The notes: generated from the letters alone by a model not told the origin. A stretch of 32,000 nucleotides of DNA from Microcystis aeruginosa NIES-2549 (GCF_000981785.2 NZ_CP011304.1:4170001-4202000), one strand, 5' to 3'; shown: positions 4,633 to 22,561, counted from the first letter of the stretch. Numbers and translations: made by a program.

Positions 4633-4660
4633 GTAGGGTTGATTCATGAATCAACCCTAC
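4633..4660. repeat. Perfect 28-nt palindrome (REP/MITE-like) nested between C-rich and G-rich arms
   Basis: GTAGGGTTGATTCA|TGAATCAACCCTAC is exactly self-complementary. The outer cacccc (4625-4630) pairs with ggggtg (4673-4678). Confidence 0.7.
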
Positions 4661-4741
4661 CCCTTAATAAGGGGGGTGCCGACAATTTTTAACACCTACC
4701 TGCTTAGGTACTTAATAAAGTTGTGATTAGGAGAAAAAACG

Positions 4742-5335
4742 ATGATTGCTTTATCTAACTATAATAATCTCACTCCAGAAGAATATCTTCAGTTTGAAGA
4801 AACCAGTCTCATTAAACATGAATATATCGATGGACAAGTTTACGCCATGGCAGGGACGACGGATACTCATAATATTATCGGACTCAATTTCACTTTTATT
4901 ATTCGTAATCATTTGCGGGGTTCTGGTTGTCGAGTTTATTTTGCCGATGTGAAAGTCAGATTAGAGAAACGTAATCACTTTTATTATCCTGATATTATTG
5001 TCACCTGCGATAACAGAGATAGAGAAACCGCTACCTACAAAAGTTTTCCTAAATTGATTGTTGAAGTTCTCTCCGATTCTACAGAAGCTTTTGACAGGGG
5101 GGATAAATTTAATGATTATCAAACTCTAGAAAGTTTAGAGGAATATGTCTTAGTGAATAGTAAACACCAACGAGTGGAAACTTTTCGACGGGGTGAACAG
5201 GGTTTATGGATTCTGCAAACCTATCAGCAAGAAAGTTTTAGTTTACAGAGTATTAATCTGACGGCATCTTTTCGGGATTTATACGGGGATGTCACCCTAG
5301 AAACGGTTAATTATTCCGTGGAAGAAATAGAATAA
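4742..5335 (+). CDS. Uma2-family (DUF820) putative PD-(D/E)xK endonuclease, intact copy
   Basis: 197 aa. Typical Uma2 pattern: EEYLQFEETSLIKHEYIDGQVYAMAGTTDTHN ... YYPDIIVTC ... PKLIVEVLSDSTEAFDRGDKF..Y..L.SLEEYVLV. Its stop is 1 nt from the stop of the convergent MotB-like gene. Confidence 0.8.
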   Translation: MIALSNYNNLTPEEYLQFEETSLIKHEYIDGQVYAMAGTTDTHNIIGLNFTFIIRNHLRGSGCRVYFADVKVRLEKRNHFYYPDIIVTCDNRDRETATYKSFPKLIVEVLSDSTEAFDRGDKFNDYQTLESLEEYVLVNSKHQRVETFRRGEQGLWILQTYQQESFSLQSINLTASFRDLYGDVTLETVNYSVEEIE

Positions 5336-5336
5336 A

Positions 5337-5978
5337 TCATTGTTTTTTACCGGGGGGAATAAAACGGATTTCAATTCTGCGTCTGCTTGCATCTGCGTCA
5401 CGATTAACCGCAGCTAAGTTACCCGATGGTAGGTATAACTGTCCTGCGGAAAAAGCTCGAAATTTGACGTTTTTGAGTTTACCTGTGTTTTCGATTTCTT
5501 GGACTACTGCTAAAGCTCGCATTAATCCTAAATCAGTGTTAGAACCGGGTACTAGCATTTTAACAGATTGTTTTCTGCTGGCAACCGATTCGATATTTTT
5601 ATCGAGATTACTTGTCTTCTGTATTCCTTGTCCGTCGGTGTGTCCAATTACTTGAATAAAGTCGATTTCTCTGTCTTTGGTAATGGTTTCGATAGCGGGA
5701 ATAATGCGCTGACGAATATGGGTTTTTAAAGCAGGGTTTAATTCAGCACTTCCCGACTGAAATTTAAATTTTCCTGATTTTTCATCGATAACTATGGGGG
5801 TTGCTGTTTGCAGTTTTCGGTTAGCTTCCTCCAGTTTGCTGATGAGATTATAGGACTGAAAAAGTGCCAAGAGGAGAAATAAACTCAGAATCATGAAAGC
5901 ATTGGACATTAAATCGGTAAATGCGGGATAAACATCCACCGATTTATCTTCATCTCGGTAGTAGGTACGTCTAGACAT
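5337..5978 (-). CDS. MotB/OmpA-like (ZorB/ExbD-position) stator subunit: N-terminal TM with a conserved Asp plus an OmpA-type peptidoglycan-binding domain
   Basis: 213 aa. YPAFTDLMSNAFMILSLFLLLAL is a MotB-type plug/TM segment with Asp. The C-terminal half carries OmpA_C-like motifs: FQSGSAEL, VIGHTDGQG, NTDLGLMRALAV, RRRIEIRF. Confidence 0.75.
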   Translation of the reverse strand: MSRRTYYRDEDKSVDVYPAFTDLMSNAFMILSLFLLLALFQSYNLISKLEEANRKLQTATPIVIDEKSGKFKFQSGSAELNPALKTHIRQRIIPAIETITKDREIDFIQVIGHTDGQGIQKTSNLDKNIESVASRKQSVKMLVPGSNTDLGLMRALAVVQEIENTGKLKNVKFRAFSAGQLYLPSGNLAAVNRDADASRRRIEIRFIPPGKKQ

Positions 5979-6000
5979 AGTTACTTATATGTTGGTGAAG

Positions 6001-9000
6001 TTATTCAAATAGGGTGTTAATGTCATCCAGAACATCTTTTTGAGGAGGATTAGGGATTGTCTCACAAAGTTTTTCTATCTTATCCTTTAAGTTAGAAAAT
6101 TCAGACTGAACATCTTTTTGAGTAGGATTAGGGATTGTCTCAAAAAGGTTTTTAAGTTCTTCCAACTTCTTATTTAACTTATAAATGTCATCCTGAACAT
6201 CTTTTTGAGGAGGATTAGGGATTGTCTCAAAAAGTTCTTTAAGTTCTTCCATCTTATTATTTAAGTTAGAAAAGTCAGAACGCATATCGTTAATTTTCTC
6301 CAGTTCTGCTAAACATTTTTGAATTTCTCCATAAATATGTTCAATCATTTTCTGATTCGATTTATTTTCCTTAGCGATAACTTTCTCTAACTTATCTCGC
6401 AAAGATTCTAAGTTAGCAGTTAATTGACTGGTGTTGGTGTTCACCGCATCAATTACTTGAGAAAAATCTGATTTAAGGCTGCCAAATTGATTGGCTGTTT
6501 TCTCAATAGATTGGGAAACTGCTTTTAATTGTTCTGAGTTCTTAGTTAATTTATCATCAACTACCATCCCTAAGTTATTGCTTAAAAGGTTTAACTCAGA
6601 CTGTAAGCTTTCCTTGACTTGAGTAAGTTGCTCTGTCACTGTATCAATTAACTGAGACAAGTTAGCATTAGTCACATCGAGATTATTACTAGAGCGCTCA
6701 ATCCCATGGGAAGCTGTGAGGATTTTATCGGAGGTTTGGGAGAGTCTTTCATCGAGACTATTGATAAGTTGGTTTCCTAATTGTTTCGACTCGGAGTTAA
6801 AACTGTCTTGATAGGTTTTCACAGTTTCGATTAATTTTACTAATTCTCCCTGAATGTTAGATAACTTTTCTTGTTCGGTGACTGAGCGTTGCTGATTTTG
6901 TTCTAGGATTTTCTCAGAGACTTGAGTAAGTTGCTCTGTCACTGTATCAATTAACTGAGACAAGTTAGCATTAGTCACATCGAGATTATTACTAGAGCGC
7001 TCAATCCCATGGGAAGCTGTGAGGATTTTATCGGAGGTTTGGGAGAGTCTTTCATCGAGACTATTGATAAGTTGGTTTCCTAATTGTTTCGACTCGGAGT
7101 TAAAACTGTCTTGATAGGTTTTCACAGTTTCGATTAATTTTACTAATTCTCCCTGAATGTTAGATAACTTTTCTTGTTCGGTGACTGAGCGTTGCTGATT
7201 TTGTTCTAGGATTTTCTCAGAGACTTGAGTAAGTTGCTCTGTCACTGTATCAATTAACTGAGACAAGTTAGCATTAGTCACATCGAGATTATTACTAGAG
7301 CGCTCAATCCCATGGGAAGCTGTGAGGATTTTATCGGAGGTTTGGGAGAGTCTTTCATCGAGACTATTGATAAGTTGGTTTCCTAATTGTTTCGACTCGG
7401 AGTTAAAACTGTCTTGATAGGTTTTCACGGTTTCGATTAATTTTACTAATTCTCCCTGAATGTTGGATAACTTTTCTTGTTCGGTGACTGAGCGTTGCTG
7501 ATTTTGTTCTAGGATTTTCTCAGAGACTTGAGTAAGTTGCTCTGTCACTGTATCAATTAACTGAGACAAGTTAGCATTAGTCACATCGAGGTTATTACTA
7601 GAGCGCTCAATCCCGTGGGAAGCAGTGAGAATTTTATCGGAGGTTTGGGAGAGTCTTTGCTCAAGACGATTGATAAGTTGGTTTCCTAATTGTTTCGACT
7701 CGGAGTTAAAACTGTCTTGATAGGTTTTCACAGTTTCGATTAATTTTACTAATTCTCCCTGAATGTTAGATAACTTTTCTTGTTCGGTGACTAAGCGTTG
7801 CTGATTTTGTTCTAGGATTGTCTCAGATTTTTGATTCAAGTCAGTAATTTTTATTCCTAACTCAACCATAGTTGTCATGGAACGCTGGAAGTCTTGAGTT
7901 AAAGAAGCTAGAGATTGAGTTGATTGGTTTAACTCAGACTGTAAGCTTTCCTTGACTTGAGTAACTTGCTCTGTCACTGTATCAATTAACTGAGACAGGT
8001 TAGCATTAGTCACATCTGGATTATTACTAGAGCGCTCAATCCCATGGGAAGCTGTGAGAATTTTATCGGAGGTTTGGGAGAGTCTTTCATCGAGACTATT
8101 GATAAGTTGATTGCCTAATTGTTTCGACTCGGAGTTAAAACTGTCTTGATAGGTTTTCACAGTTTCGATTAATTTTACTAATTCTCCCTGAATGTTAGAT
8201 AACTTTTCTTGTTCGGTGACTGAGCGTTGCTGATTCTGTTCTAGGATTTTCTCAGAGACTTGAGTAAGTTGCTCTGTCACTGTATCAATTAACTGAGACA
8301 AGTTAGCATTAGTCACATCGAGGTTATTACTAGAGCGCTCAATCCCATGGGAAGCTGTGAGGATTTTATCGGAGGTTTGGGAGAGTCTTTCATCGAGACT
8401 ATTGATAAGTTGGTTTCCTAATTGTTTCGACTCGGAGTTAAAACTGTCTTGATAGGTTTTCACAGTTTCGATTAATTTTACTAATTCTCCCTGAATGTTA
8501 GATAACTTTTCTTGTTCGGTGACTGAGCGTTGCTGATTTTGTTCTAGGATTTTCTCAGATTTTTGATTCAAGTCAGTAATTTTTATTCCTAACTCAACCA
8601 TAGTTGTCATTGAACGCTGGAAGTCTTGAGTTAAAGAAGCTAGAGATTGAGTTGATTGGTTTAACTCAGACTGTAAGCTTTCCTTGACTTGAGTAACTTG
8701 CTCTGTCACTGTATCAATTAACTGAGACAGGTTAGCATTAGTCACATCGAGATTATTGCTAGAGCGCTCAATCCCATGGGAAGCTGTGAGGATTTTATCG
8801 GAGGTTTGGGAGAGTCTTTCATCGAGACTATTGATAAGTTGGTTTCCTAATTGTTTCGACTCGGAGTTAAAACTGTCTTGATAGGTTTTCACAGTTTCGA
8901 TTAATTTTACTAATTCTCCCTGAATGTTAGATAACTTTTCTTGTTCGGTGACTGAGCGTTGCTGATTTTGTTCTAGGATTTTCTCAGATTTTTGATTCAA

Positions 9001-9711
9001 GTCAGTAATTTTTATTCCTAACTCAACCATAGTTGTCATTGAACGCTGGAAGTCTTGAGTTAAAGAAGCTAGAGATTGAGTTGATTGGTTTAACTCAGAC
9101 TGTAAGCTTTCCTTGACTTGAGTAAGTTGCTCTGTCACTGTATCAATTAACTGAGACAGGTTAGCATTAGTCACATCGAGATTATTGCTAGAGCGCTCAA
9201 TCCCATGGGAAGCTGTGAGGATTTTATCGGAGGTTTGGGAGAGTCTTTCATCGAGACTATTGATAAGTTGGTTTCCTAATTGTTTCGACTCGGAGTTAAA
9301 ACTGTATTGATAGGTTTTCACGGTTTCGATTAATTTTACTAATTCTCCCTGAATGTTGGATAACTTTTCTTGTTCGGTGACTGAGCGTTGCTGATTTTGT
9401 TCTAGGATTTTCTCAGATTTTTGATTCAAGTCAGTAATTTTTATTCCTAACTCAACCATAGTTGTCATTGAACGCTGGAAGTCTTGAGTTAAAGAAGCTA
9501 GAGATTGAGTTGATTGGTTTAACTCAGACTGTAAGCTTTCCTTGACTTGAGTAAGTTGCTCTGTCACTGTATCAATATTATTACTTAAGCGGTTGACTTT
9601 TTTGGTTGACTCTTGGAGATGTTTATAGAGAGCAATTAAGACGGTGGGAAAAATAACCAAGACTAGAATTAAAAGAATCAGATAGGGAGGAAAAAGGTTA
9701 AGTAATGCCAT
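6001..9711 (-). CDS. Giant single-pass membrane coiled-coil protein made of near-identical tandem modules; its N-terminus is paralogous to the MotA-like gene at 10430-11974
   Basis: 1236-aa uninterrupted ORF. The N-terminal TM MALLNLFPPYLILLILVLVIFPTVLIALYKHLQ is about 90% identical to that of the 541-aa ORF. It is followed by 8 modules of 143/101 aa and a unique C-terminal 230 aa with 3x ETIPNP(P/T)QKDV. The MotA channel helices are absent. Confidence 0.7.
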   Translation of the reverse strand: MALLNLFPPYLILLILVLVIFPTVLIALYKHLQESTKKVNRLSNNIDTVTEQLTQVKESLQSELNQSTQSLASLTQDFQRSMTTMVELGIKITDLNQKSEKILEQNQQRSVTEQEKLSNIQGELVKLIETVKTYQYSFNSESKQLGNQLINSLDERLSQTSDKILTASHGIERSSNNLDVTNANLSQLIDTVTEQLTQVKESLQSELNQSTQSLASLTQDFQRSMTTMVELGIKITDLNQKSEKILEQNQQRSVTEQEKLSNIQGELVKLIETVKTYQDSFNSESKQLGNQLINSLDERLSQTSDKILTASHGIERSSNNLDVTNANLSQLIDTVTEQVTQVKESLQSELNQSTQSLASLTQDFQRSMTTMVELGIKITDLNQKSEKILEQNQQRSVTEQEKLSNIQGELVKLIETVKTYQDSFNSESKQLGNQLINSLDERLSQTSDKILTASHGIERSSNNLDVTNANLSQLIDTVTEQLTQVSEKILEQNQQRSVTEQEKLSNIQGELVKLIETVKTYQDSFNSESKQLGNQLINSLDERLSQTSDKILTASHGIERSSNNPDVTNANLSQLIDTVTEQVTQVKESLQSELNQSTQSLASLTQDFQRSMTTMVELGIKITDLNQKSETILEQNQQRLVTEQEKLSNIQGELVKLIETVKTYQDSFNSESKQLGNQLINRLEQRLSQTSDKILTASHGIERSSNNLDVTNANLSQLIDTVTEQLTQVSEKILEQNQQRSVTEQEKLSNIQGELVKLIETVKTYQDSFNSESKQLGNQLINSLDERLSQTSDKILTASHGIERSSNNLDVTNANLSQLIDTVTEQLTQVSEKILEQNQQRSVTEQEKLSNIQGELVKLIETVKTYQDSFNSESKQLGNQLINSLDERLSQTSDKILTASHGIERSSNNLDVTNANLSQLIDTVTEQLTQVSEKILEQNQQRSVTEQEKLSNIQGELVKLIETVKTYQDSFNSESKQLGNQLINSLDERLSQTSDKILTASHGIERSSNNLDVTNANLSQLIDTVTEQLTQVKESLQSELNLLSNNLGMVVDDKLTKNSEQLKAVSQSIEKTANQFGSLKSDFSQVIDAVNTNTSQLTANLESLRDKLEKVIAKENKSNQKMIEHIYGEIQKCLAELEKINDMRSDFSNLNNKMEELKELFETIPNPPQKDVQDDIYKLNKKLEELKNLFETIPNPTQKDVQSEFSNLKDKIEKLCETIPNPPQKDVLDDINTLFE
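6031..6235. repeat. Three copies of a 34-nt box (encodes the ETIPNPPQKDV motif) at the 3' end of the giant gene
   Basis: aacatctttttgag(g/t)aggattagggattgtctca starts at 6031, 6109 and 6196 (spacing 78 and 87 nt). Confidence 0.75.
6590..9575. repeat. In-frame tandem array: 8 units of 303 nt or 429 nt, nearly identical
   Basis: The anchor GACTTGAGTAA(G/C)TTGCTCTGTCACTG occurs at 6616, 6919, 7222, 7525, 7954, 8257, 8686, 9115 and 9544. Spacings are 303,303,303,429,303,429,429,429 nt. Confidence 0.9.
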
Positions 9712-9895
9712 GATAGTTATTGGATACCTCGAATTGTGGTTGATAGAGAGAGTTGGGGGTGAATGTTTCCTCAGATAGCTGGGGAAACATCATTAAGATT
9801 AATAAATTTTATCATTCATCAGTAGTGCTAACCTCTCCGGGTAAACTGGGTTGACTACTGTTATTGTTTGTTCCCAGTAAAGTTTGTTGCTTTTT
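9585..9895. repeat. Segmental duplicate (copy 2) of 11831-12158: the 5' end of the MotA-like gene, the spacer and the last 28 codons of the tubulin-like gene
   Basis: By eye it aligns at roughly 90-95% identity with 11831-12158. Differences include a 15-nt indel and a G5 versus G7 run. Confidence 0.85.
9812..9895 (-). pseudogene. Remnant of the 3' end of the tubulin-like gene (last ~28 codons plus stop)
   Basis: The reverse complement reads ...QQTLLGTNNNSSQPSLPGEVSTTDE*, matching the C-terminus of the 12077-15220 product (…LLGTNNNSSQPSLPAEVSTTDE*). Confidence 0.8.
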
Positions 9896-9909
9896 CAACG
9901 ATTAAACCC

Positions 9910-10419
9910 ATGATTGCTTTATATAGCTATAATAATCTCACTCCAGAAGAATATCTTCAGTTTGAAGAAACCAGTCTCATTAAACATGAATATATCGATG
10001 GACAAGTTTACGCCATGGCAGGGACGACGGATACTCATAATATTGTTTTGGGGAATATATACACAATTATTTGTAATCATTTGCGGGGGTCCGATTGTCG
10101 GGTTTATTTTGCCGATGTGAAAGTCAGATTAGAGAAACGCAATCACTTTTATTATCCTGATATTATTGTCACCTGCGATGACAGAGATAGAGAAACCGCT
10201 ACCTACAAAAGTTTTCCTAAATTGATTGTTGAAGTTCTCTCCGATTCTACAGAAGCTTTTGACAGGGGGGATAAATTTAATAATTATCAAACTCTAGAAA
10301 GTTTAGAGGAATATGTCTTAGTGAATAGTAAACACCAACGAGTGGAAACTTTTCGACGGGGTGAACAGGGTTTATGGATTCTGCCGATTTATCTTCATCT
10401 CGGTAGTAGGTACGTCTAG
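9910..10419 (+). pseudogene. 3'-truncated second copy of the Uma2 endonuclease gene, fused to antisense MotB-like sequence
   Basis: 9910-10384 parallels 4742-5216, with the protein identical except around residues 45-55. After ...GEQGLWIL the frame runs into the reverse complement of the MotB-like start (PIYLHLGSRYV*). The TTG-initiated extension from 9868 in the ORF track is tubulin-remnant sequence. Confidence 0.75.
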
Positions 10420-10423
10420 ACAT
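10385..10423 (-). pseudogene. 13-codon 5' remnant of a MotB/OmpA-like gene
   Basis: The reverse complement encodes MSRRTYYRDEDKS, identical to 5940-5978. Its ATG lies 6 nt after the stop of the MotA-like gene. The rest of the gene is deleted. Confidence 0.8.
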
Positions 10424-10429
10424 AGTTAC

Positions 10430-11974
10430 TTAGAATGGTTTTTTGATACTATCAGATACTTGATTGATTTCTTTTTCCATCTCAGATAAAAAAGAATTTT
10501 TCTGTTGATTGCTAAGGTTAATAATTTGGTTTAAGATGGCTTGTATATCTCTGAGATAACTGACTGTTTGCTGACTTTTCTCAGCAATAATTTCTCCTTG
10601 ATAATTATTACGGCCAACTTCTTGAGAAATTAATCGACTTAACCGGTCACCTAAAGCAGTTAATTGGTCTGAGTTATTGTTAATATTGTGAGTAGTTTCT
10701 AATAAGTTGTTTTGGATTGACTGAAGAGAAATAAGTAGTTGTTCAGTCCTTTCATTGAGAACAATGTTTAAATTTTGACTTTCTTTACGAATTGATAGAG
10801 AAGACTGTCCTAAATTTTTAATTTCCGCTTCTACGCTTACCAAGCTTTTGAAAGTATTATGAACATTATCTGTTGCTTGACTCATCAATTTAGTTAAACT
10901 ATCTATATGTTCCACTGTTAGACATAACTTAGCATGAGTAGAATATAACTTTTCAGAAGTTGCGACTAAATTATCAGTAACTTGACTATTAACTAATTTA
11001 TCAACTGTCGATTTAAAGTTACTAATGCAGTTATCCAAACTCTGACCATATTTAACAAAGTTTTCGTGGTGAATTGCTTTATATAATTTGTTGACATTTT
11101 CTTCAAAACTATTGGTAGAACTCTTAAAAGTCGTCGCACCGGTAGATAAAGTTCCTGCGGTTTCAGTTAATCTTTCACAAACCTGAGTGACTAATTTAGC
11201 AGTTTCCTGATTACCATCATCAATTTTTTTAGCAACTTTCTCTAAAGAAGATTCTAATACTCTCGTCACCTCATTATGAAAGTTAGTCAGAAATGCTTGC
11301 TGTGTATCCACCATGCGATTAACCGCTTTATCCAAGCGACTATTCCCTTCTACAGTCGGCTGCAAGATATTATCTAAATAGTCTTCTAGGGAACTAATTA
11401 GATTTACTTTAGCAAGGTTGGTATTAAAGATTAAGTTAATCACAGTCAGCAAAGAACTACAAGCTAAACCAATTAAGCTAGTGATAAAAGCAATCCCCAT
11501 GCTTTCTAGGGGAGTTTTGAGCTTTTCTCCTAAACTTTGCAAATCGACATTATTAATATCGATAAGTGTGCTGATTCCCGTCAGATTGAGAGTAATTCCG
11601 AAGAAAGTTCCCAACAAACCAAAAGCGAGGAGGAGATTGGGTAACACTCTTACAAAATAATCCCATTTTTCGCAACTGAGAGATTTAGACATGAAAGTAA
11701 ATTGTTCTTCATGGTATAAACCATCTACCAAAGCTGCGGTATTAACATCATCTAGTTGACTACTGGCTATCTTAAATCTATTCTCTAGATTAGAGATAAT
11801 TTTAGGTTGAACCCCGCGACTTTCTCCCCGAATTAAGCGCTTGACTTTTGCAGTTGAATCTTGGAGATGTTTATAGAGAGTCATCCGGATTCTCACAGCT
11901 AAGACGGTGGGAAAAATAACCAAGACTAGAGTTAAAACAATCAGATAGGGGGGAAAAAGGTTAAGTAATGCCAT
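10430..11974 (-). CDS. MotA/TolQ/ExbB-family proton-channel protein with a ~330-aa C-terminal coiled-coil tail (ZorA-like architecture)
   Basis: TM1 is LFPPYLIVLTLVLVIFPTVL. The channel signature is LLLAFGLLGTFFGITLNL ... SMGIAFITSLIGLACSSLLTVINLIF (compare ExbB/TolQ GLFGTVWGI ... GIAEALIATAIGL). A long heptad-rich tail follows. I chose the start at MALLNLF (11974) because the paralogue at 9711 starts there; the ORF is also open to 12055. Confidence 0.75.
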   Translation of the reverse strand: MALLNLFPPYLIVLTLVLVIFPTVLAVRIRMTLYKHLQDSTAKVKRLIRGESRGVQPKIISNLENRFKIASSQLDDVNTAALVDGLYHEEQFTFMSKSLSCEKWDYFVRVLPNLLLAFGLLGTFFGITLNLTGISTLIDINNVDLQSLGEKLKTPLESMGIAFITSLIGLACSSLLTVINLIFNTNLAKVNLISSLEDYLDNILQPTVEGNSRLDKAVNRMVDTQQAFLTNFHNEVTRVLESSLEKVAKKIDDGNQETAKLVTQVCERLTETAGTLSTGATTFKSSTNSFEENVNKLYKAIHHENFVKYGQSLDNCISNFKSTVDKLVNSQVTDNLVATSEKLYSTHAKLCLTVEHIDSLTKLMSQATDNVHNTFKSLVSVEAEIKNLGQSSLSIRKESQNLNIVLNERTEQLLISLQSIQNNLLETTHNINNNSDQLTALGDRLSRLISQEVGRNNYQGEIIAEKSQQTVSYLRDIQAILNQIINLSNQQKNSFLSEMEKEINQVSDSIKKPF

Positions 11975-12158
11975 GATAGTTATTGGATACCTCGAATTGT
12001 GGTTGATAGAGAGAGTTGGGGGGGTGAATGTTTCCTGAGATAGCTGGGGAAACATTATTAAGATTGCTCAATTTTATCATTCATCAGTAGTGCTAACCTC
12101 TGCGGGTAAACTGGGTTGACTACTGTTATTATTTGTTCCCAGTAAACTTTGTTGCTTT
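11831..12158. repeat. Segmental duplicate (copy 1) matching 9585-9895
   Basis: See 9585-9895. It spans the tubulin-like stop (12077), the spacer and the first ~45 codons of the MotA-like gene. Confidence 0.85.
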
Positions 12159-15100
12159 TGCTGTTGTTTTTCGAGTTTTTTCTGTTCACCAGTACGTTTT
12201 TCTAGTTCCATTTTCAGTTGATTAACAAAACGGGTGATAATTCCTTCTTTTGCCTCCTGTTGAGTATTTCCATCTTGTCCAGCTACCTTATCTTTGTAGC
12301 GATAATTGGGGTGATAGGAGGGTAAATTTTTGACATTGTTGACAAAATAGCTGACGTTCTGGAAATAATCACCCTCGTTAGTAAATAATAGGGTAGGATT
12401 AGCCAAAATCTCATTTTTTGCCTGATTAAGCAGTATCTGCAAAGCATTAATCATGTCATTACGAGAAGCAAATTGTTCTAAGGCAAGTCGCCAATTACCG
12501 CTAATGTCAATGATGGACTTATTGTTAAATAAATCGCCTTCGATGACTAATTGATAAGTATCATCTTCCTCATCGTATTCTAGTAAACCGAGAGCAATTG
12601 CGGGATAGAAAATAAACTCTAATTCCTCAATTAATTTGGCAGGTGGTGGAATAATATCAGCAAAATCTATCCTGTAATCATTGTGTAAAATGCTGATTCT
12701 TTTTTGGTCTTGATAGATTTGTTGCAACCCAGATAAATCAGTAATGATTCTTAGGGGAAACCCACCAAACTCGTAGGTAATTAGGATTTCTTCGTCGGTT
12801 TGAATTGATTTAAAAGAAGTTCCCTTAATATTTAAATCAGATTCAAGAGTCTTCATAAATCTTTGCATGGTGGGTGAATTATCATCCTTAGTCCCAATTA
12901 GTAATGCTTTATCTGTATGCAAGCGATAGTAAGCATCATTAACATTTATCGGTAACATTAAATCAGCTTCTCGCAGAATTTGCGCCAAGCGTTCAGGAAA
13001 ATCATGGGGTTTATATTGACCCATAAATCGCTTAATTACTGCATCAATTTTATTAGTGCTTACTGATTGAAACTGTTTCTCGATTGTAGCTGTTAGAGTC
13101 TCTTTGAGAGTCTCATTATCAATAACAAAAGATTGGCTAAATAAACTGAATAGGGAAGCATTATAGCCTAAATTATTGGTGACTTTTTGGCTAACGGAAA
13201 TGTATTGAGTTCGGGAGTTACTGTCCGGGATACAGTTATCAATATTCTCCTCTGGAAAAATACCTTCCCCAGTCATCTCGTCGAGATTTAACTGCATTAA
13301 CTCCTGTTCGTATTTATCGTATTCTGTGATTAGCTGATATAGGGATTCTTTCAGTTGTTGTATCTGCAGCATTCGACTGGAAATATGCTTGAGAATCGCT
13401 TCAACAATCTTTCTAGATTCGCGATTGATACTGAAATTAAAGTTCTGCTGAATTAATTTTTGTCCGCTTTGAACGTAGTCTCTTAACTCAGCTTTGATTC
13501 TCTCACTATTGGCATTTTTATTGAACATCTTGAAGACAGACTTTTTCCCGTTTATATCTTCGAGAGTTTGTTTAACATTTCGCCAAATGTTATCAATTTT
13601 TTCCGAGGAATGAAACCCTTTATTATCCTGAGATAATTCCTCTAGATTCCCCTTGTAGGTATTAATCTGTACTTGTAAAGCGACCAAAAAAGATAGGCTA
13701 TTTTCCAAAGAAAATTCTAAGCTATCAGGATTAAGAAGAATCTCCAAAAATTGGTCAATATCTGACTTAAATTTTTCGATTAATTTAGGTTGAGTTTGTT
13801 GGGTCAGAGTTAACCAGATTCCACGACTGCTATCCGTTTCTCCCCCCTGTACTTTGCGAAACTCTTTTTCTAGGGATTGCTTGACGGTTTGGGGTAAATT
13901 CTCCAAATCTTGACTATTGGATATTTCTTCCTCTAGGGAATTTTTCCAAGAGGTTAAAGTCTTGGAAAAAGTTTTATTATTCTCTAGGGTTGCTTCTTCC
14001 AATCTGGCAGTAAAATAATCCTTATTACTTTGGGTACTCCAATTAGCTAGGAACTTACTTAATAACTCTTGTCCACTGGGACTTTGACCATATCCCTCTA
14101 ACCAAAATTTAATTAATTTGAGACTAAAACGATTGAGACCAATCTGCACAATTCGGTCGCGAGTAAAATAAATCCTCGCTAGTCCAAAGGACATATAACC
14201 TTGACACATCTGAAAAGGATGATTATCTTTACGAATCATCGGGTCTTTATAGTTATCCCGATTGCTTTTGATGGGGAGAGATAACTCATCGGCAAAATCC
14301 AAGAAAATCTTGTAAGCAATGACATTACATAATTTACCTTTGTTATTAATCCGGTAATCTCCCGCAGTGCGATTAGAAACTAAGTAGGCAAAATCAAAAG
14401 GAGAACGTTTTTCATCGATGTGGACGAAATTTTGTTTATCATAACAGGCTTGAAAGGAATTACTTTCATTGGTATAATGATCTAACTCTTTCAAAGCTGC
14501 ATAGGTATTAGCTCTCATAATTGCCCCATCACCATAAAGTTTAGGACTAATTACCAAATAACCAAAGGATGTATATTCGGCCGTTTGTTGTAAAATATGA
14601 CGCAAAGTGTAGGCCACATCGAGGAAAATACCGCTACCAGTTCCCCCACACAAAGAACCGACAACAAAGACATTTAAACCCTCTTGGACATTAAAACTTT
14701 GACCGTTAACTTTACCGCTAAACATAAAGGATTCATGACCAGAAGTTCGTCTTTCCGCTGCTTCAATTGCCTCCTGAATTTTTTGATAGTTATGGAAGAA
14801 AGCTAAACGACCGACGGGACGAATACCTCCCGCACCATTTTCAATGGCAGTTATTTGTTTTTTTAGTCTTGGGTCTAACCAGCTTTCAATATGGGAAAAG
14901 GGACTTTCAAAAAGGGTTTTGTGTTCAAGTTCATAGGTGAGATTGTTAACATCCTGAGCATTCATATTAATGAATACTCTTTCAGCAGCTGATAGAAGAA
15001 TTTCTTCTCCGTGATAGCTATTTCCTGTGGGTAAACCCGAACCATTGAAAGCGTTTTTGTCTGTGTCAATATGAACAAAACTGACAACGGGTAGGTTAGA

Positions 15101-15220
15101 TAACTTCCCATACTTATCAATAATAAAGCGACGAATTCTCATTAACACATCTCGACCAGTACCACCTAATCCGATGATAATTGTCCGTTTGATAGCGCGG
15201 GTTTGACTGGTGTTAGCCAT
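12077..15220 (-). CDS. Large tubulin/FtsZ-superfamily GTPase (Pfam Tubulin_2 / FtsZl-1-like) with a ~700-aa C-terminal extension
   Basis: 1047 aa. T1-type loop TIIIGLGGTGRDV at residues 13-25. Tubulin signature GGTGSG in VFVVGSLCGGTGSGIFLDVAY. The C-terminal two thirds are helical/coiled-coil and end in a Q/K-rich low-complexity tail. AGGAG lies about 10 nt upstream of the ATG. Confidence 0.8.
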   Translation of the reverse strand: MANTSQTRAIKRTIIIGLGGTGRDVLMRIRRFIIDKYGKLSNLPVVSFVHIDTDKNAFNGSGLPTGNSYHGEEILLSAAERVFINMNAQDVNNLTYELEHKTLFESPFSHIESWLDPRLKKQITAIENGAGGIRPVGRLAFFHNYQKIQEAIEAAERRTSGHESFMFSGKVNGQSFNVQEGLNVFVVGSLCGGTGSGIFLDVAYTLRHILQQTAEYTSFGYLVISPKLYGDGAIMRANTYAALKELDHYTNESNSFQACYDKQNFVHIDEKRSPFDFAYLVSNRTAGDYRINNKGKLCNVIAYKIFLDFADELSLPIKSNRDNYKDPMIRKDNHPFQMCQGYMSFGLARIYFTRDRIVQIGLNRFSLKLIKFWLEGYGQSPSGQELLSKFLANWSTQSNKDYFTARLEEATLENNKTFSKTLTSWKNSLEEEISNSQDLENLPQTVKQSLEKEFRKVQGGETDSSRGIWLTLTQQTQPKLIEKFKSDIDQFLEILLNPDSLEFSLENSLSFLVALQVQINTYKGNLEELSQDNKGFHSSEKIDNIWRNVKQTLEDINGKKSVFKMFNKNANSERIKAELRDYVQSGQKLIQQNFNFSINRESRKIVEAILKHISSRMLQIQQLKESLYQLITEYDKYEQELMQLNLDEMTGEGIFPEENIDNCIPDSNSRTQYISVSQKVTNNLGYNASLFSLFSQSFVIDNETLKETLTATIEKQFQSVSTNKIDAVIKRFMGQYKPHDFPERLAQILREADLMLPINVNDAYYRLHTDKALLIGTKDDNSPTMQRFMKTLESDLNIKGTSFKSIQTDEEILITYEFGGFPLRIITDLSGLQQIYQDQKRISILHNDYRIDFADIIPPPAKLIEELEFIFYPAIALGLLEYDEEDDTYQLVIEGDLFNNKSIIDISGNWRLALEQFASRNDMINALQILLNQAKNEILANPTLLFTNEGDYFQNVSYFVNNVKNLPSYHPNYRYKDKVAGQDGNTQQEAKEGIITRFVNQLKMELEKRTGEQKKLEKQQQKQQSLLGTNNNSSQPSLPAEVSTTDE

Positions 15221-15237: not shown

Positions 15238-16362
15238 TTATTTTTTGCTAATCTGAATTTGTAGGTCGAAATCTTGATGGTTATGGTGATAGGTTAAAGT
15301 CAGGTAATTTTTATCTATCTTCACCTCCTGAGTTAGTTGATTACCTCGATAAAAAATCTCTGCTTGTTTACTGGGTTTCAGATATAACTGATTGCCGCGT
15401 CTTTCTAAATAGCAGCGAATTTCTTCCCCAGCACGAGAAAAGGTATTCTTCTTATGTTCTTCACCACCGATGTTAATTTTTCCAGATGTTTTTAAAATAT
15501 ATTTTTGGGTTTCATCTTCATCATCATTAGAGGAGACTTCAATAGTCCAAGCAGTATTTAACAGCAACCAGTGACGAATTCCCAAAATACTCGCTACTAT
15601 TCCCCCAATTCCCATTAATGTAATTACCAATGCTGGCAACCATAACTGACTCAAGAGATAAGGATTAATCAAACAGGTTTCTTGTCCTCCCGGTGCGGGA
15701 GTACAAAACTCTTGTGCTGTGGGAGCAATATCGACAACTGATAGTTGATATTTATTGCCGTTAGTGGCGGTAATTTCTTGGGTTCTTAGATTAATTGGTA
15801 GGGAATTAAGCCAGTTTTGTCTCTCCAAACTTTCGGGAGAATCAGCAAGACGAAAAGGGCTATTTTTTGGGGTTTCTATCCACTGTTGGGAAGTAATCCC
15901 CGCGCCAGTAGAAAGGGGTGCATCGGTAATCCAAACTACCGACTGGGGTTTGATAGCTTGATTGGCAGTTAAACGACACTGATTTAAGCGTGCCAGTCGG
16001 GGATAAACGTGCCATTCTGCTTGCTGAATATCGGTATTTTTAGCACTTTGGCTAGATTGCCAGGGAATCGCCTTTAAAACCGCGTCTATATCTTCCTGAC
16101 TCCGAATTAAAATCGGTTCTGCAATCGGTTGAACATTATCAGCAAAGGGGAATAAATAAACGGAATCGTTATTTTTTAAACTATCGCGAATAATTTGACC
16201 GAGGCGCGTGCGTCCTTCATCATTAAAGTTAACACTACCGGTAAGATCGATCGCTAGGATAACATCTCGTCCCTGCCAACGAGCCACCAAATCTAATCCG
16301 AGTTTTTGCCAATCAGTAAGCGGTTCCCCGGGGGATACCGTTAAACATTCAGCACTTTTCAT
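15238..16362 (-). CDS. vWA-domain protein with a central TM helix and a C-terminal beta-rich (degenerate FHA-like) domain
   Basis: 374 aa. The MIDAS-like start of a vWA fold is VILAIDLTGSVNFNDEGR ... SVYLFPFADNV ... VVWITDAPL. The TM is LWLPALVITLMGIGGIVASILGI. The tail YILKTSGKINIGGEE...IRCYLERRGNQLYLKP...IFYRGNQL resembles an FHA topology but lacks the canonical R/S/H residues. The stop is 17 nt before the tubulin-like start. Confidence 0.65.
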   Translation of the reverse strand: MKSAECLTVSPGEPLTDWQKLGLDLVARWQGRDVILAIDLTGSVNFNDEGRTRLGQIIRDSLKNNDSVYLFPFADNVQPIAEPILIRSQEDIDAVLKAIPWQSSQSAKNTDIQQAEWHVYPRLARLNQCRLTANQAIKPQSVVWITDAPLSTGAGITSQQWIETPKNSPFRLADSPESLERQNWLNSLPINLRTQEITATNGNKYQLSVVDIAPTAQEFCTPAPGGQETCLINPYLLSQLWLPALVITLMGIGGIVASILGIRHWLLLNTAWTIEVSSNDDEDETQKYILKTSGKINIGGEEHKKNTFSRAGEEIRCYLERRGNQLYLKPSKQAEIFYRGNQLTQEVKIDKNYLTLTYHHNHQDFDLQIQISKK

Positions 16363-20755: not shown

Positions 20756-21478
20756 TTATTCAGAGTTTAAGCGATCAGGCGACCATCCCCAATATATTTT
20801 CTGTTCCCCATAATACTCTTTAAGAATTGCATAACTGACAATCTCAAAAACTCTAGCATCAATGTTTGGTCTGAGTAAACTCCGAATAAATTCAATGGCT
20901 TTCTGGGGATCTTGCTGTTGAATATCAATCATCTGTTGACAATAGCTGATAAATTGATTAAATGCTTTTTGTCTTGTTTGCACATAGGCATCAATTATAT
21001 CTATAATCACTGGCGCAATATTAACTTGATTACCCTCTAGATAAAACTTAATTAGATTCTCATTAATCCAGTATCTATTGGTTTTAACATCTCTAATTAT
21101 CGGCAGATAAGATAAGGTGGGAAAATACTTGTTAAATTCCTGATTTAATCGATGATTGAGAGCATGATTTTGTAATTTATTGCCAAAAGGAAGCTCCCTT
21201 TGCCTGCGAAAAAGTGTCATATACTGAGCGCCTTGATACTCGTCGTATCCATCCTTAAGATGAAACTCATTATTAATATAGTCTTCCACTAAAACATAAA
21301 TTGCATAATGGTTAGCCAATCCTGCTCGGGATTTAGAACCTCGATTAGCAGCTCTAGTTTTAATGTTCAAATATTGCAATAACTCACTAGCATTTAAAAT
21401 ACTATTTCCCTGATTAGGAAAGTAATTATCGATAATTTTAATAATTATCTTGGTGAATTCATGCTTTACTATCGACAT
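20756..21478 (-). CDS. Putative type II restriction endonuclease, N-terminal fragment (ends inside an Mrr-like PD-(D/E)xK core)
   Basis: The start at MSIVKHEF (21478) overlaps the upstream methyltransferase stop by 20 nt. The C-terminus ...DARVFEIVSYAILKEYYGEQ... resembles the first helix of Mrr-type nuclease domains. The role assignment is mainly positional. Confidence 0.5.
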   Translation of the reverse strand: MSIVKHEFTKIIIKIIDNYFPNQGNSILNASELLQYLNIKTRAANRGSKSRAGLANHYAIYVLVEDYINNEFHLKDGYDEYQGAQYMTLFRRQRELPFGNKLQNHALNHRLNQEFNKYFPTLSYLPIIRDVKTNRYWINENLIKFYLEGNQVNIAPVIIDIIDAYVQTRQKAFNQFISYCQQMIDIQQQDPQKAIEFIRSLLRPNIDARVFEIVSYAILKEYYGEQKIYWGWSPDRLNSE

Positions 21479-22352: not shown

Positions 22353-22561
22353 TTTTTTAATTTAAAGTAGTTAGATTTTTACTAGGAAATGTCTCAATTT
22401 TTAACCTCCTTAGCGATTAGGATAATTGACAGACTTTATCATAAATATGAAGTATAACCTAATTTGGTATTGATGACCGACTTCTGACGACAGACTCCCC
22501 ACAACAAAAACTTGGATTTTTAAGCCTTTAAATATTTTAATATGAGTCAGTATCCCGCAGT

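What the first reader, a model, noticed from the sequence alone, without database searches (positions are those of the whole stretch)
4742..12158. Segmental duplication gives two alternative third-gene cassettes between conserved flanks
Three sequence blocks occur twice in direct orientation:
- Block A is the tubulin 3' end, the spacer and the N-terminal TM of the downstream gene: 11831-12158 and 9585-9895.
- Block C is the Uma2 gene from its ATG: 4742-5216 and 9910-10384.
- Block B is the MotB-like start plus the junction catagttactta: 5940-5987 and 10385-10432.

The pattern fits a tandem duplication of the unit Uma2, MotB-like, third gene and tubulin 3' end. The novel joint at 9896-9909 has 14 nt of filler. 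A ~720-bp deletion then removed the Uma2 3' end and nearly all of MotB-like from the upper copy.

The flanks are about 90-95% identical, yet the bodies between A and B are unalignable by eye. One is a channel plus tail (1.4 kb) and the other is the repeat protein (3.6 kb). That points to allele or cassette replacement rather than divergence.

Recombination between the A copies would delete 9.6-11.8 kb and produce an operon of vWA, tubulin-like, repeat protein and MotB-like. The locus could therefore toggle or lose variants.
Basis: partly seen in the sequence, partly recalled or inferred. Interest (0 to 1): 0.7.

Follow-up and report, generated by a model that had tools for sequence, protein, structure and literature searches.

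The report
Duplicated, half-decayed ZorAB-like stator cassette
A Microcystis operon for a tubulin-like GTPase and a Zorya-like membrane motor carries a second, head-to-tail copy of its motor genes; each copy has lost what the other kept and they bear different "tail" versions. This is ordinary genome evolution, but it shows how these motor tails get swapped and stretched in nature.

Summary
The three duplicated blocks are real: A is 89% identical (E 4e-125), C is 94%, and B matches 49/49.

The window is Microcystis. On the minus strand lies a four-gene cassette that other cyanobacteria also carry:
- a vWA-TM-FHA protein
- a Tubulin_2/FtsZl1 GTPase
- a ZorA-like channel with a coiled-coil tail
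- a ZorB-like/OmpA anchor

Most Microcystis strains have one ZorA-like gene of 715-892 aa. Here the ZorA-ZorB-Uma2 segment is present twice, head to tail.
- **Upper copy (X, 514 aa):** it keeps all three TM helices but has lost ZorB.
- **Lower copy (Y, 1236 aa):** it keeps ZorB but has lost TM2-TM3 (about 494 codons). Its 101/143-aa tail unit has grown from 1-2 copies to 8.

The two genes are therefore not different kinds of gene. They are two tail alleles of one gene. X's channel is about 97% identical to the common allele. Its tail is only about 22% identical to that allele's tail, but 42% identical to a tail from a more distant relative.

The "14-nt filler" is the native Uma2 leader. The same scars occur in at least 10 independent assemblies, so this is an inherited haplotype. 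I found no evidence of toggling. The duplication itself is ordinary; the ZorAB-tubulin link and the tail swapping are moderately interesting.

The parts
15238..16362 (-). First gene of the operon: a vWA-like domain, one TM helix and a C-terminal FHA domain (374 aa).
   Evidence: There is no Pfam, NCBIfam or PADLOC hit. The AF2 model has pLDDT 85. Foldseek PDB hits: vWA domains for the N-terminal part (6fpy 6.5e-5, 3ibs, 6pyx) and FHA domains for the C-terminal part (3gqs, 2lc1, 1uht; TMt 0.6-0.7). Hydropathy shows a TM at 244-262. NCBI names homologues 'VWA domain-containing protein'.
12077..15220 (-). Tubulin-like GTPase of the FtsZl1 family (1047 aa).
   Evidence: Pfam Tubulin_2 PF13809, E 2.8e-99. 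PF13809 corresponds to the FtsZ-like family of Makarova & Koonin 2010 (PMC9871819; PMC2875224).
11833..12159 (-). Block A, upper copy (A1): the last 26 codons plus stop of the tubulin-like gene, a 102-nt spacer, and TM1 of the ZorA-like gene.
   Evidence: It differs by 2.2-5.8% from the same block in other strains.
10430..11974 (-). X: a complete ZorA-like gene (514 aa) with TM1-TM3, a beta-hairpin and a 229-aa helical tail.
   Evidence: PADLOC ZorA1, E 2.2e-16. NCBIfam antiphage_ZorA_2, E 8.4e-10, below its cut-off. Three hydrophobic helices. The five best Foldseek PDB hits of the AF2 model are all ZorA chains, though the model is weak at pLDDT 55. The start at 11974 is conserved in 120 homologues.
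10430..11117 (-). X-type tail module; the swapped part begins at about 11118.
   Evidence: Homology to the common Microcystis allele stops at window 11118 in L001-L004. The tail is 42% identical to the P0040 tail (E 2e-51) but about 22% identical to the 738-aa-type tails.
10384..10432 (-). Block B, upper copy (B2): the stop of X, the spacer and the first 13 codons of a deleted ZorB (ATG at 10423).
   Evidence: 49/49 identical to 5939-5987. In sister assemblies B2 carries 3 private changes. Here it equals B1, which indicates gene conversion.
9910..10384 (+). Block C, upper copy (C2): a Uma2 gene truncated at nt 475 by the deletion joint at 10384/10385.
   Evidence: Pfam Uma2, E 9.5e-39; alignment. 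The same gene is full length (196 aa) in the sister haplotype (L011, L012, L017).
9892..9909 (.). Duplication joint: the native Uma2 leader (TTCAACGATTAAACCC) abutting the tubulin 3' remnant.
   Evidence: The leader is identical to that of the proximal Uma2 in L001. The exact 27-mer across the joint is present in 11 sources.
9585..9894 (-). Block A, lower copy (A2): a non-coding remnant of the tubulin 3' end, the spacer, and TM1 of Y.
   Evidence: It is identical in the window, L009, L011-L013.
6001..9711 (-). Y: a channel-less ZorA-like derivative (1236 aa) made of TM1, 8 repeat units and a 215-aa tail end.
   Evidence: Only one hydrophobic helix. The units start at aa 46, 189, 332, 475, 576, 719, 820 and 921, with lengths 143, 143, 143, 101, 143, 101, 101 and 101 aa. 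The tail end is 98-99% identical to L001/L002. The junction 'KVNRL|SNN|IDTVTEQ' corresponds to loss of about aa 48-541 of the 738-aa allele.
6588..9576 (-). Tandem array of 303-nt and 429-nt units, 95-100% identical to each other.
   Evidence: the repeat finder families D1-D6. TRF reports periods 303 and 429 with 97-99% matches and 0% indels. Full-length alleles hold 1 or 2 units.
6019..6279 (-). Second tandem repeat of 87 nt (a 29-aa 'IPNPPQKDV' unit), about 3 copies, at the C-terminus of Y.
   Evidence: There are 0-4 copies in other alleles.
5939..5987 (-). Block B, lower copy (B1): the stop-side end of Y, the spacer and the start of ZorB.
5337..5978 (-). ZorB-like stator partner (213 aa): an N-terminal TM helix with Asp22 (AFTDLMSNAF) and an OmpA-like peptidoglycan-binding domain. 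It is the only intact copy.
   Evidence: PADLOC ZorB1 2.2e-9 and ZorB3 2.2e-8. Pfam OmpA 5.8e-5, below the gathering score. NCBIfam gives weak MotB and peptidoglycan-binding hits. TM at 22-46.
4742..5335 (+). Block C, lower copy (C1): an intact Uma2 gene (197 aa), convergent with ZorB.
   Evidence: Pfam Uma2 9.1e-41. PADLOC PDC-S03 7.5e-34.

Best explanation
The region is one minus-strand operon of a four-part membrane system:
- a vWA-TM-FHA protein
- a tubulin-like (FtsZl1/Tubulin_2) GTPase
- a ZorA-like proton-channel subunit with a long cytoplasmic coiled-coil tail
- a ZorB-like peptidoglycan-anchored partner

**How the structure arose.** In an ancestor of this Microcystis lineage, one illegitimate joint formed. 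It linked the Uma2 leader to the tubulin-like gene 83 nt from the end of its stop codon. That joined a second copy of the segment [tubulin 3' end, ZorA, ZorB, Uma2] head to tail.

The two copies carry different tail modules of the same gene. The upper copy has a short X-type tail whose closest relative here is the tail of P0040, a more distant family member. The lower copy has the common Microcystis tail.

Each copy then lost what the other retained.
- A deletion removed ZorB, and probably one and a half Uma2 genes, from the upper copy.
- An internal deletion of about 494 codons removed TM2-TM3 from the lower ZorA. What remains is TM1 fused to the tail (Y).

Unequal, in-frame recombination then expanded Y's 101/143-aa unit to 8 copies.

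**Net content.** The operon holds one intact ZorA-like gene (X), one intact ZorB-like gene 4.4 kb downstream, and between them a membrane-anchored tail-only protein.

**Inferred function.** X5:ZorB2 remains the working stator that signals to the tubulin-like and vWA-FHA partners. Y is a by-product freed from the length constraint that holds full-length alleles at 1-2 units.

**Shown versus inferred.** The scars, the allele relationships, the domain losses and the population distribution are shown. The order of events, expression, and every functional statement are inferred.
For: - **Repeats and joints:**
- **Organism and single-gene reference state:** five Microcystis species representatives. 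In L001-L003 one 738-aa gene combines X's channel (window 11974-11118, about 96-97% identical) with a tail holding one copy of Y's unit and Y's C-terminus, followed by ZorB and Uma2. L004 shows the same pattern but its contig ends inside the tail.
- **Cassette conservation:** the four-gene cassette with one ZorA-like gene and one 213-aa ZorB-like gene occurs in other cyanobacteria in unrelated contexts.
- **Helix content:** X has three TM helices and Y has only TM1.
- **ZorA/ZorB likeness:**
- **Tail swap:** together.
- **The joint is native sequence on both sides:**
- **Inherited haplotype:** the deletion joint is present in 10 sources. The duplication joint and the TM1-unit junction are present in 11 sources, including isolate, MAG and metagenome assemblies.
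- **Sister haplotype:** it keeps the joint, A2, Y and ZorB, and has a full-length Uma2 plus a fragment of a second one upstream. This shows the upper copy once held more.
- **Unit copy number:** 1 or 2 units in 120 full-length alleles against 8 here. Y measures 205-663 aa in other assemblies.
- **Ongoing exchange between copies:** in this genome B2 has been converted to B1.
Against: - The order of events is not resolved.
- A pure single-cassette X-type operon was not demonstrated. NIES-4325 (L005) shows X followed by an intact ZorB 5' end, but the contig stops 109 nt after its last private SNP, as if ZorB were two-copy there. The isolate scaffold L020 hides the region under 100 Ns.
- Y is an intact ORF with TM1, spacer and start codon in every assembly that holds it. 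This is also what a functional gene would show.
- Too few substitutions exist to measure selection.
- Short Y forms in short-read assemblies may be collapsed repeats.
- ZorA/ZorB assignment rests on sub-threshold HMM scores and a low-confidence model.
- No expression or phenotype data exist.
Confidence: 0.7

Rival explanations
1. The scars are the same but the route differs. The lower half (Uma2, joint, A2, Y, ZorB) existed first as a relic, in strains whose vWA, tubulin and ZorA genes had been replaced by a CHAT/STAND island. The window's haplotype then arose in one step, when DNA from an X-type donor recombined. The left end crossed over homologously in the GntR region. The right end joined illegitimately between ZorB codon 12 and Uma2 nt 475. 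This re-supplied a complete vWA-tubulin-ZorA set to the orphan ZorB.
For: - The relic haplotype exists, and the segment of it that aligns to the window (window 10384-9115: Uma2, joint, A2 and the start of Y) is 98.2% identical, with A2 itself 100% identical (L011, L012, L017-L019).
- Its left border is exactly at the GntR stop (window 16617).
- This route needs one event fewer than duplication followed by allele replacement and two independent deletions.
- X-type tails were seen only in this haplotype or in L005.
Against: - The joint between the Uma2 leader and the tubulin 3' remnant still needs an earlier tandem duplication to explain why Uma2 genes lie upstream of A2. This route therefore extends the best explanation rather than replacing it.
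- No donor with a proven single X-ZorB cassette was found.
- Sequence identities do not discriminate between the routes.
Confidence: 0.3
2. Y is a selected, functional accessory protein. It would be a TM1-anchored cytoplasmic coiled coil of variable length that modulates the system, for example as a tail decoy, a scaffold for the tubulin-like protein, or a ruler. Its repeat number would be tuned by selection.
For: - The ORF is intact over 3.7 kb in 36% G+C DNA.
- The start codon, spacer and TM1 are retained.
- Y is present and open in more than 10 assemblies, with lengths of 205, 318, 546, 562, 663 and 1236 aa.
- It persists next to ZorB even where ZorA is gone.
- In Zorya the tail is the signalling element and its length matters (PMC11946911).
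Against: - An open frame is expected without selection. The units are multiples of 3 nt and 95-100% identical, so they are recent. A2 is identical across sources, and the tail end is 98-99% identical to functional alleles.
- In the relic haplotype none of its presumed partners remain.
- Full-length alleles hold only 1-2 units, so 8 looks like release from constraint.
- In E. coli ZorA, TM2 and TM3 are the helices that line ZorB (PMC11946911), so a TM1-only protein lacks the helices that contact ZorB.
Confidence: 0.15
3. The locus is a switch. Recombination between the direct repeats toggles or sheds cassettes within a population, giving cells different tail variants.
For: - The direct repeats contain identical runs of 71 nt (A), 118 nt (C) and 49 nt (B), enough for RecA-type recombination.
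- The B copies have exchanged sequence in this genome.
- B-B recombination would give a clean X-ZorB operon.
Against: - Deletion between direct repeats is irreversible, so this is loss rather than toggling.
- The A-A product has no channel and the C-C product has no ZorB.
- No recombinase gene lies in the neighbourhood.
- None of the 24 related loci shows an A-A or C-C product.
- The haplotype is stably inherited across many samples.
Confidence: 0.07
4. The arrangement is an assembly artefact caused by repeat-induced misjoining.
For: The region is repeat-rich. Public short-read assemblies break or gap here.
Against: - The same deletion joint, duplication joint and TM1-unit junction occur in independent isolate, MAG and metagenome assemblies from NCBI, ENA and JGI.
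- The repeat units carry distinct SNP patterns and two unit sizes.
Confidence: 0.02

Closest known systems
Zorya anti-phage system, ZorA5B2 stator (types I-III; Hu et al. 2024, PMC11946911)
   Same: - X has three TM helices, a beta-hairpin and a long all-helical C-terminal tail.
- Its partner has an N-terminal TM helix with an Asp and a peptidoglycan-binding OmpA-like domain.
- PADLOC ZorA and ZorB models are the best hits, and ZorA chains are the best fold matches.
- The tail is the variable, presumably signalling part.
   Different: - No ZorC/D, ZorE or ZorF/G is present. The partners are a tubulin-like GTPase and a vWA-TM-FHA protein.
- Scores fall below NCBIfam family cut-offs.
- X's tail is short (229 aa).
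- Defence activity has not been tested.
- A channel-less TM1-plus-tail derivative is not described for Zorya.
FtsZl1 (Tubulin_2) / vWA / OmpA-like operons (Makarova & Koonin 2010, PMC2875224)
   Same: A Tubulin_2 protein next to a vWA protein and an OmpA-family protein, with mostly membrane-associated components. This locus is a member of that operon class.
   Different: - That paper does not mention MotA in its text and proposes membrane remodelling.
- Here the uncharacterised third gene is ZorA-like and the OmpA-like gene is ZorB-like, which points to an ion-driven stator.
- The duplication and tail polymorphism are specific to this lineage.
Tandem segmental duplication followed by complementary degeneration of the copies
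   Same: There is one novel joint and the flanks are direct repeats. Each copy lost a different essential part, so both must be kept.
   Different: The two copies carry different alleles of the tail, so a recombination or transfer step is involved as well as duplication. The complementation is between genes of an operon (ZorA in one copy, ZorB in the other) rather than between subfunctions of one gene.
Copy-number-variable tandem repeats in bacterial coiled-coil surface proteins (from general knowledge, for example streptococcal M and alpha-C proteins)
   Same: Large in-frame units of near-identical sequence change in number between strains by unequal recombination, altering the length of a helical rod.
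   Different: Here the rod is predicted to be cytoplasmic. The extreme expansion is in a truncated copy, not the working gene.

Membership tests
Zorya ZorA | MotA/ExbB-type channel subunit with three TM helices | tested here: met
   X has hydrophobic helices at 11-29, about 110-132 and 161-179. PADLOC ZorA1 gives E 2.2e-16 over residues 39-231. The five top Foldseek PDB hits are ZorA chains, followed by TolQ and ExbB. Y has TM1 only, so Y does not meet this feature.
Zorya ZorA | Score above the curated family threshold | tested here: not met
   NCBIfam antiphage_ZorA_2 scores 38 bits against a cut-off of 100. ZorA_4 scores 24 bits against 500. Pfam MotA_ExbB was not reported.
Zorya ZorA | Long C-terminal helical tail | tested here: met
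   X residues about 185-511 are helical in the AF2 model, though at low confidence. Other alleles have tails of 430-600 aa.
Zorya ZorB | N-terminal TM helix with a conserved Asp, plus a peptidoglycan-binding domain, encoded directly after ZorA | tested here: met
   Asp22 sits in AFTDLMSNAF at the start of the TM helix. PADLOC ZorB3 matches residues 9-58 (2.2e-8) and ZorB1 matches 72-206 (2.2e-9). Pfam OmpA scores 23.8 bits, just below the 27.2 cut-off. ZorB follows the ZorA-like gene directly in L001 and L014-L016, but here it follows Y rather than X.
Zorya system (types I-III) | Cognate soluble effectors ZorC+ZorD, ZorE, or ZorF+ZorG in the operon | tested here: not met
   The other operon proteins have no PADLOC hit. 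They are Tubulin_2 and vWA-FHA.
Zorya system | Protects against phage | not testable with these tools
   This needs phage challenge of a host carrying the cassette.
FtsZl1/vWA operon (Makarova & Koonin 2010) | Tubulin_2-type FtsZ-like protein | tested here: met
   PF13809, E 2.8e-99, covering positions 1-355 of the 356-position model.
FtsZl1/vWA operon (Makarova & Koonin 2010) | Adjacent vWA-domain protein | tested here: met
   There is no sequence-family hit. However, the AF2 model (pLDDT 85) matches vWA domains (6fpy 6.5e-5, 3ibs, 6pyx). A DxTxS motif (DLTGS) occupies the MIDAS position.
Tandem segmental duplication | Flanking blocks repeated in the same order and orientation, with one novel joint whose two sides are native sequences from the ends of the unit | tested here: met
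Tandem segmental duplication | Single-copy state in related genomes | tested here: met
   L001-L003 and L014-L016 each have one ZorA-like gene followed by one ZorB-like gene. L004 shows one ZorA-like gene but its contig ends within it.
Programmed cassette switching / phase variation | A dedicated recombinase or reversible (inverted-repeat) architecture | tested here: not met
   The repeats are direct. The neighbouring ORFs are DUF3370, YlqD, an AMP-binding ligase, GntR, an acyltransferase and RF3, and none is a recombinase.
Programmed cassette switching / phase variation | Both states present within one clonal population | not testable with these tools
   This needs raw long reads of the strain.

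The most novel reading that the evidence does not exclude
The vWA-TM-FHA / Tubulin_2 / ZorA-like / ZorB-like cassette may be an undescribed Zorya-type defence system. In it, a peptidoglycan-anchored ion-driven stator would signal through its cytoplasmic tail to a tubulin-like GTPase instead of to nucleases.

Microcystis would then diversify the tail under phage pressure in two ways: by swapping whole tail modules and by changing unit copy number. The window would catch a tail replacement in progress, in which a new allele was added beside the old one and the two copies then decayed reciprocally. The leftover TM1-plus-tail protein might act as a decoy or competitor for tail-binding partners.
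Probability: 0.25. Interest if true: 0.75.

Novelty: new variant of a known kind. Interest (0 to 1): 0.45.

Why it matters
The duplication itself is ordinary genome evolution and matters mainly for annotation. Public short-read assemblies break or gap exactly here, and the genes are mislabelled 'methyl-accepting chemotaxis protein', 'SbcC' or 'hypothetical'.

Three points reach further.
1. The uncharacterised third gene of the FtsZl1/vWA/OmpA operon class is ZorA-like and its OmpA partner is ZorB-like. This turns a 2010 'membrane remodelling' guess into a testable model: a stator motor coupled to a tubulin-like GTPase.
2. Microcystis offers a natural series of tail variants on an almost invariant channel. 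There are two unrelated tail modules, with 1, 2 or 8 copies of a 101/143-aa unit and 0-4 copies of a 29-aa unit. In E. coli Zorya every tail truncation tested abolished defence.
3. The haplotype is a clear example of how a new allele can be added next to an old one, after which both copies are locked in by reciprocal loss.

Tried and rejected
- **Selection on Y's tail end:** dN/dS against L001 and L002 yielded only 3-7 differences in 363 nt, which is uninformative.
- **PDB sequence searches:** single-sequence searches with X, ZorB-like and the vWA-like protein found nothing significant.
- **PDB profile search:** a profile of 20 ZorA-like homologues was swamped by coiled-coil hits.
- **Exact-sequence look-ups:** neither the window's Y nor its X is in the collection, so the strain was not identified.
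- **A single-cassette X-type operon:**
  - L020 looked like one, but it has a 100-N scaffold gap at the critical place and carries the haplotype's private B2 changes.
  - L005 is ambiguous because its contig ends inside ZorB.
- **Promoter and terminator scan:** promoter-like sites were fewer than in shuffled sequence (20 against a mean of 34), and no minus-strand terminator-like site lies between the end of X (10430) and the start of Y (9711), so nothing decisive emerged on whether X, Y and ZorB are co-transcribed.
- **A2 as a deeply diverged copy:** I first read its 89% identity this way. Once the two indels are set aside the substitution distance is 5.8%, inside the between-strain range of 2-7.7%, so I rejected this.
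- **Literature:** I found no paper linking ZorA or Zorya with Tubulin_2/FtsZl1 or with Microcystis. This covers the held library only.

Full report
**1.

- Block A: 9585-9894 vs 11833-12159, 89.3% over 327 columns, E 4e-125.
- Block C: 4736-5216 vs 9904-10384, 94.4%, E 0.
- Block B: 5939-5987 vs 10384-10432, 49/49, E 8e-20.

Pairwise alignments show the details. Block A consists of the last 26 codons plus stop of the upstream gene, a 102-nt spacer, and the first roughly 45 codons of the next gene, with a 15-nt and a 2-nt indel. In the upper copy, Uma2 nt 475 is fused directly to codon 13 of the MotB-like gene. Relative to the lower copy, 722 nt are missing (5217-5938).

**2. What the genes are**

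The operon lies on the minus strand.
- **15238-16362.** No family hit. A confident model (pLDDT 85) shows a vWA-like domain, one TM helix and a C-terminal FHA domain.
- **12077-15220.** A Tubulin_2/PF13809 protein, E 2.8e-99. This is the FtsZl1 family of Makarova & Koonin.
- **X, 10430-11974.** It has three hydrophobic helices. It hits PADLOC ZorA1 at 2.2e-16 and NCBIfam ZorA_2 at 8.4e-10, the latter below cut-off. Its model is weak (pLDDT 55), but the five best PDB fold matches are all ZorA, followed by TolQ and ExbB.
- **5337-5978.** It has an N-terminal TM helix with Asp22 and an OmpA-like domain, and it hits PADLOC ZorB1 and ZorB3.
- **Y, 6001-9711.** It has only TM1. After TM1 come eight units of 143, 143, 143, 101, 143, 101, 101 and 101 aa, then a 215-aa end that includes about three 29-aa repeats.
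- **4742-5335 and 9910-10384.** Both are Uma2.

**3. Related genomes give the reference state**

The tubulin-like protein retrieves five Microcystis species representatives at 95-98% identity. L001-L003 hold a single third gene of 738 aa. Its first roughly 285 aa match X (window 11974-11118, about 96-97% identical at the DNA level). Its tail contains one copy of Y's unit and Y's C-terminus, and ZorB and one or two Uma2 genes follow. L004 shows the same pattern until its contig ends inside the tail.

The same four-gene cassette occurs in other cyanobacteria in unrelated neighbourhoods. Each has one ZorA-like gene of 518-693 aa and one 213-aa ZorB-like gene. The two-gene state in the window is therefore derived.

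Across 120 Microcystis homologues the gene ranges from 514 to 892 aa. The large unit is present once or twice, and the 29-aa unit 0-4 times. A short stretch just after TM1 also varies.

**4. X and Y are two tail alleles of one gene**

X's channel is nearly identical to that of the common allele. Its 229-aa tail behaves differently.
- It is about 22% identical (E about 1e-4) to the common Microcystis tails.
- It is 42% identical (E 2e-51) to the tail of P0040, a more distant family member.

This is module replacement, with a breakpoint near window 11118.

Y is what remains of a common-type allele after loss of about aa 48-541, which removed TM2, TM3 and the proximal tail. The junction reads KVNRL|SNN|IDTVTEQ. 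It can be derived from the 738-aa gene by two steps: a deletion at an imperfect 8-nt match (GCGCTTAA / GCGCTCTA), and a second 33-nt deletion between (C)TCGAT and ATTGAT.

**5. The joint**

The '14-nt filler' is not filler. TTCAACGATTAAACCC followed by ATG is the native leader of the ZorB-proximal Uma2 gene in L001. The joint therefore connects the spacer upstream of a Uma2 gene directly to the tubulin-like gene 83 nt from the end of its stop codon, with at most 2 nt of ambiguity. That is the signature of a head-to-tail duplication.

The two Uma2 copies in the window are reciprocal mosaics of the two tandem Uma2 genes seen in L001 and L003.
- C2 has the proximal-type leader and the distal-type internal patch.
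- C1 has the distal-type upstream region and the proximal-type patch and 3' end.

**6. This is an inherited haplotype, not a one-off**

The X allele's 90%-identity cluster has 61 members. Contigs that carry it show the same deletion joint right after X (L006-L010, L021-L024). L009, L021 and L023 run on through the duplication joint, A2, Y and ZorB. In a census of all fetched loci, the deletion joint is in 10 sources, and the duplication joint always accompanies the TM1-unit junction, in 11 sources.

An isolate scaffold (L020) has 100 Ns exactly between B2 and the end of Y, so public assemblies hide the structure.

Y measures 205, 318, 546, 562 and 663 aa in other assemblies. Some of these may be collapsed repeats, because a 61-nt exact repeat (9516-9576 = 6588-6648) lets short-read assemblers skip the array.

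**7. A sister haplotype**

The sister haplotype is seen in L011, L012 and in all three metagenome hits to the joint (L017-L019). Its order is:
- GntR
- a Zn-ribbon protein, a 1287-aa CHAT/AAA_16/TPR protein and a 110-aa protein
- the 5' 165 nt of one Uma2
- a full 196-aa Uma2
- then the same joint, A2, Y and ZorB (ZorB seen in L017 and L018)

There is no vWA, tubulin or channel gene. A2 is identical in both haplotypes.

This shows two things. First, the upper copy once carried ZorB, Uma2 and a second full Uma2, so the deletion in the window's lineage was probably about 1.3 kb rather than 722 bp (inference). Second, Y and ZorB persist as relics where no channel remains.

**8. History**

The simplest account has four steps:
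1. A tandem duplication.
2. A different tail module in one copy.
3. Loss of ZorB from the upper copy and of TM2-TM3 from the lower copy.
4. In-frame expansion of Y's unit.

A variant is that the window's haplotype arose when an X-type donor recombined into the relic haplotype, with one homologous end and one illegitimate end. It needs one event fewer, but it still requires the earlier duplication to place Uma2 upstream of A2. The data do not decide between them. The only candidate single-cassette X form (NIES-4325, L005) ends 109 nt after its last private SNP inside ZorB, as if ZorB were present twice there.

A1 and A2 differ by 5.8% in substitutions, within the 2-7.7% seen between strains. 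This fits two alleles rather than an old duplication.

**9. Function (inferred)**

In E. coli Zorya the stator is ZorA5B2. TM2 and TM3 line ZorB. Removing the whole tail abolishes motor assembly, and every tail truncation tested abolishes defence (PMC11946911).

By analogy, X plus the one remaining ZorB-like gene can still form a stator, while Y cannot. Y's topology would be that of a TM1-anchored cytoplasmic coiled coil. Its open frame is not evidence of selection, for three reasons:
- The units are multiples of 3 nt and 95-100% identical.
- A2 is identical across sources.
- The tail end is 98-99% identical to working alleles, with too few changes for dN/dS.

Full-length alleles hold 1-2 units against 8 in Y. 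That suggests release from a length constraint. A selected role for Y as a decoy or scaffold is not excluded.

**10. Toggling**

The repeats contain identical runs of 71 nt (A), 118 nt (C) and 49 nt (B). In this genome B2 has been converted to the sequence of B1, whereas sister assemblies keep three private changes in B2, so the copies do interact.

However, deletions between direct repeats are irreversible.
- A-A recombination (2248 bp) leaves no channel.
- C-C recombination (5168 bp) leaves no ZorB.
- Only B-B recombination (4445 bp) would give a canonical operon.

No such product and no recombinase gene was found. I rate programmed switching as unlikely.

**11. Comparison with what is known**

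The locus belongs to the FtsZl1/vWA/OmpA operon class. It works like a Zorya-type stator, but it is not a member of Zorya types I-III. Scores are below the curated cut-offs, and the defining effectors are replaced by a tubulin-like GTPase and a vWA-FHA protein.

I found no paper connecting ZorA or Zorya with Tubulin_2/FtsZl1 or with Microcystis. Kaur et al. 2020 place tubulin-vWA systems among conflict systems in general.

**12. Verdict**

The duplication is an ordinary though instructive structural haplotype. The underlying stator-tubulin system and its modular, length-variable tail are the more interesting part. Interest 0.45.

Noticed in passing
window 4877-4897 and 10045-10065; L001 16114-17324: The two Uma2 copies are about 97% identical except for a roughly 21-nt patch (IIGLNFTFII vs IVLGNIYTII). 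The two patch types match the proximal and distal members of a tandem Uma2 pair in other strains. The window's copies are reciprocal mosaics of leader and patch, which implies unequal crossing-over or gene conversion within a Uma2 array.
   Followed up: partly
L011 1674-6908; L012 3186-8420; L017 4148-9382: In a sister haplotype the vWA, tubulin and ZorA genes are replaced by three other genes: a Zn-ribbon protein, a 1287-aa CHAT/AAA_16/TPR (STAND-like) protein and a 110-aa protein. The left border is exactly at the GntR stop (window 16617). The site behaves like a defence-island hotspot.
   Followed up: partly
window 11830-11900 (aa about 35-65 of the ZorA-like gene); proteins P0001-P0120: The stretch just after TM1 is hypervariable among Microcystis strains, with at least six unrelated variants (for example RLIRGESRGVQPKII, GLIPRNSPKGSPKII and DLIRKKITVKDLKDLIEGKSSEKIPKII). 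The rest of the channel is nearly invariant.
   Followed up: no
window 15238-16362: The 'vWA' protein has no sequence-family hit, but its model shows a C-terminal FHA domain after the TM helix. This is a phosphothreonine-binding module that I did not find mentioned in the passages I read on this operon class.
   Followed up: partly
window 10384-10432 vs L006 10786-10834, L009 1648-1696: The upper B block is identical to the lower one in this genome, but it carries three private substitutions in sister assemblies. This indicates a recent short gene-conversion tract between the two copies.
   Followed up: yes
L020 11590-11689 (HE974173.1, GCA_000312285.1): An isolate scaffold has a 100-N gap exactly where the truncated Uma2, joint, A2 and Y should be. 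Annotation there shows X followed by ZorB as if the locus were a simple operon.
   Followed up: yes
window 4633-4660: A perfect 28-nt palindrome lies in the intergenic region between the AMP-binding ligase gene and Uma2.
   Followed up: no
window 20756-23953: Restriction-modification-like cluster: an N6/N4 DNA methylase (21459-22352), a C5 cytosine methylase (22562-23953) and an overlapping 282-aa ORF with no family hit (20756-21604). G+C here drops to 34-35%.
   Followed up: partly
window 11975-12055: The mechanical ORF for X starts 27 codons upstream (12055) of the start conserved in all homologues (11974). The extension lies in the spacer and is probably not translated.
   Followed up: yes
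L013 1635-2290; L020 12450-13105; L021 14696-15351: In several strains two small ORFs (77 and 135 aa, no Pfam hit) lie between ZorB and Uma2. They are absent from the window, where ZorB and Uma2 are separated by 1 nt.
   Followed up: no
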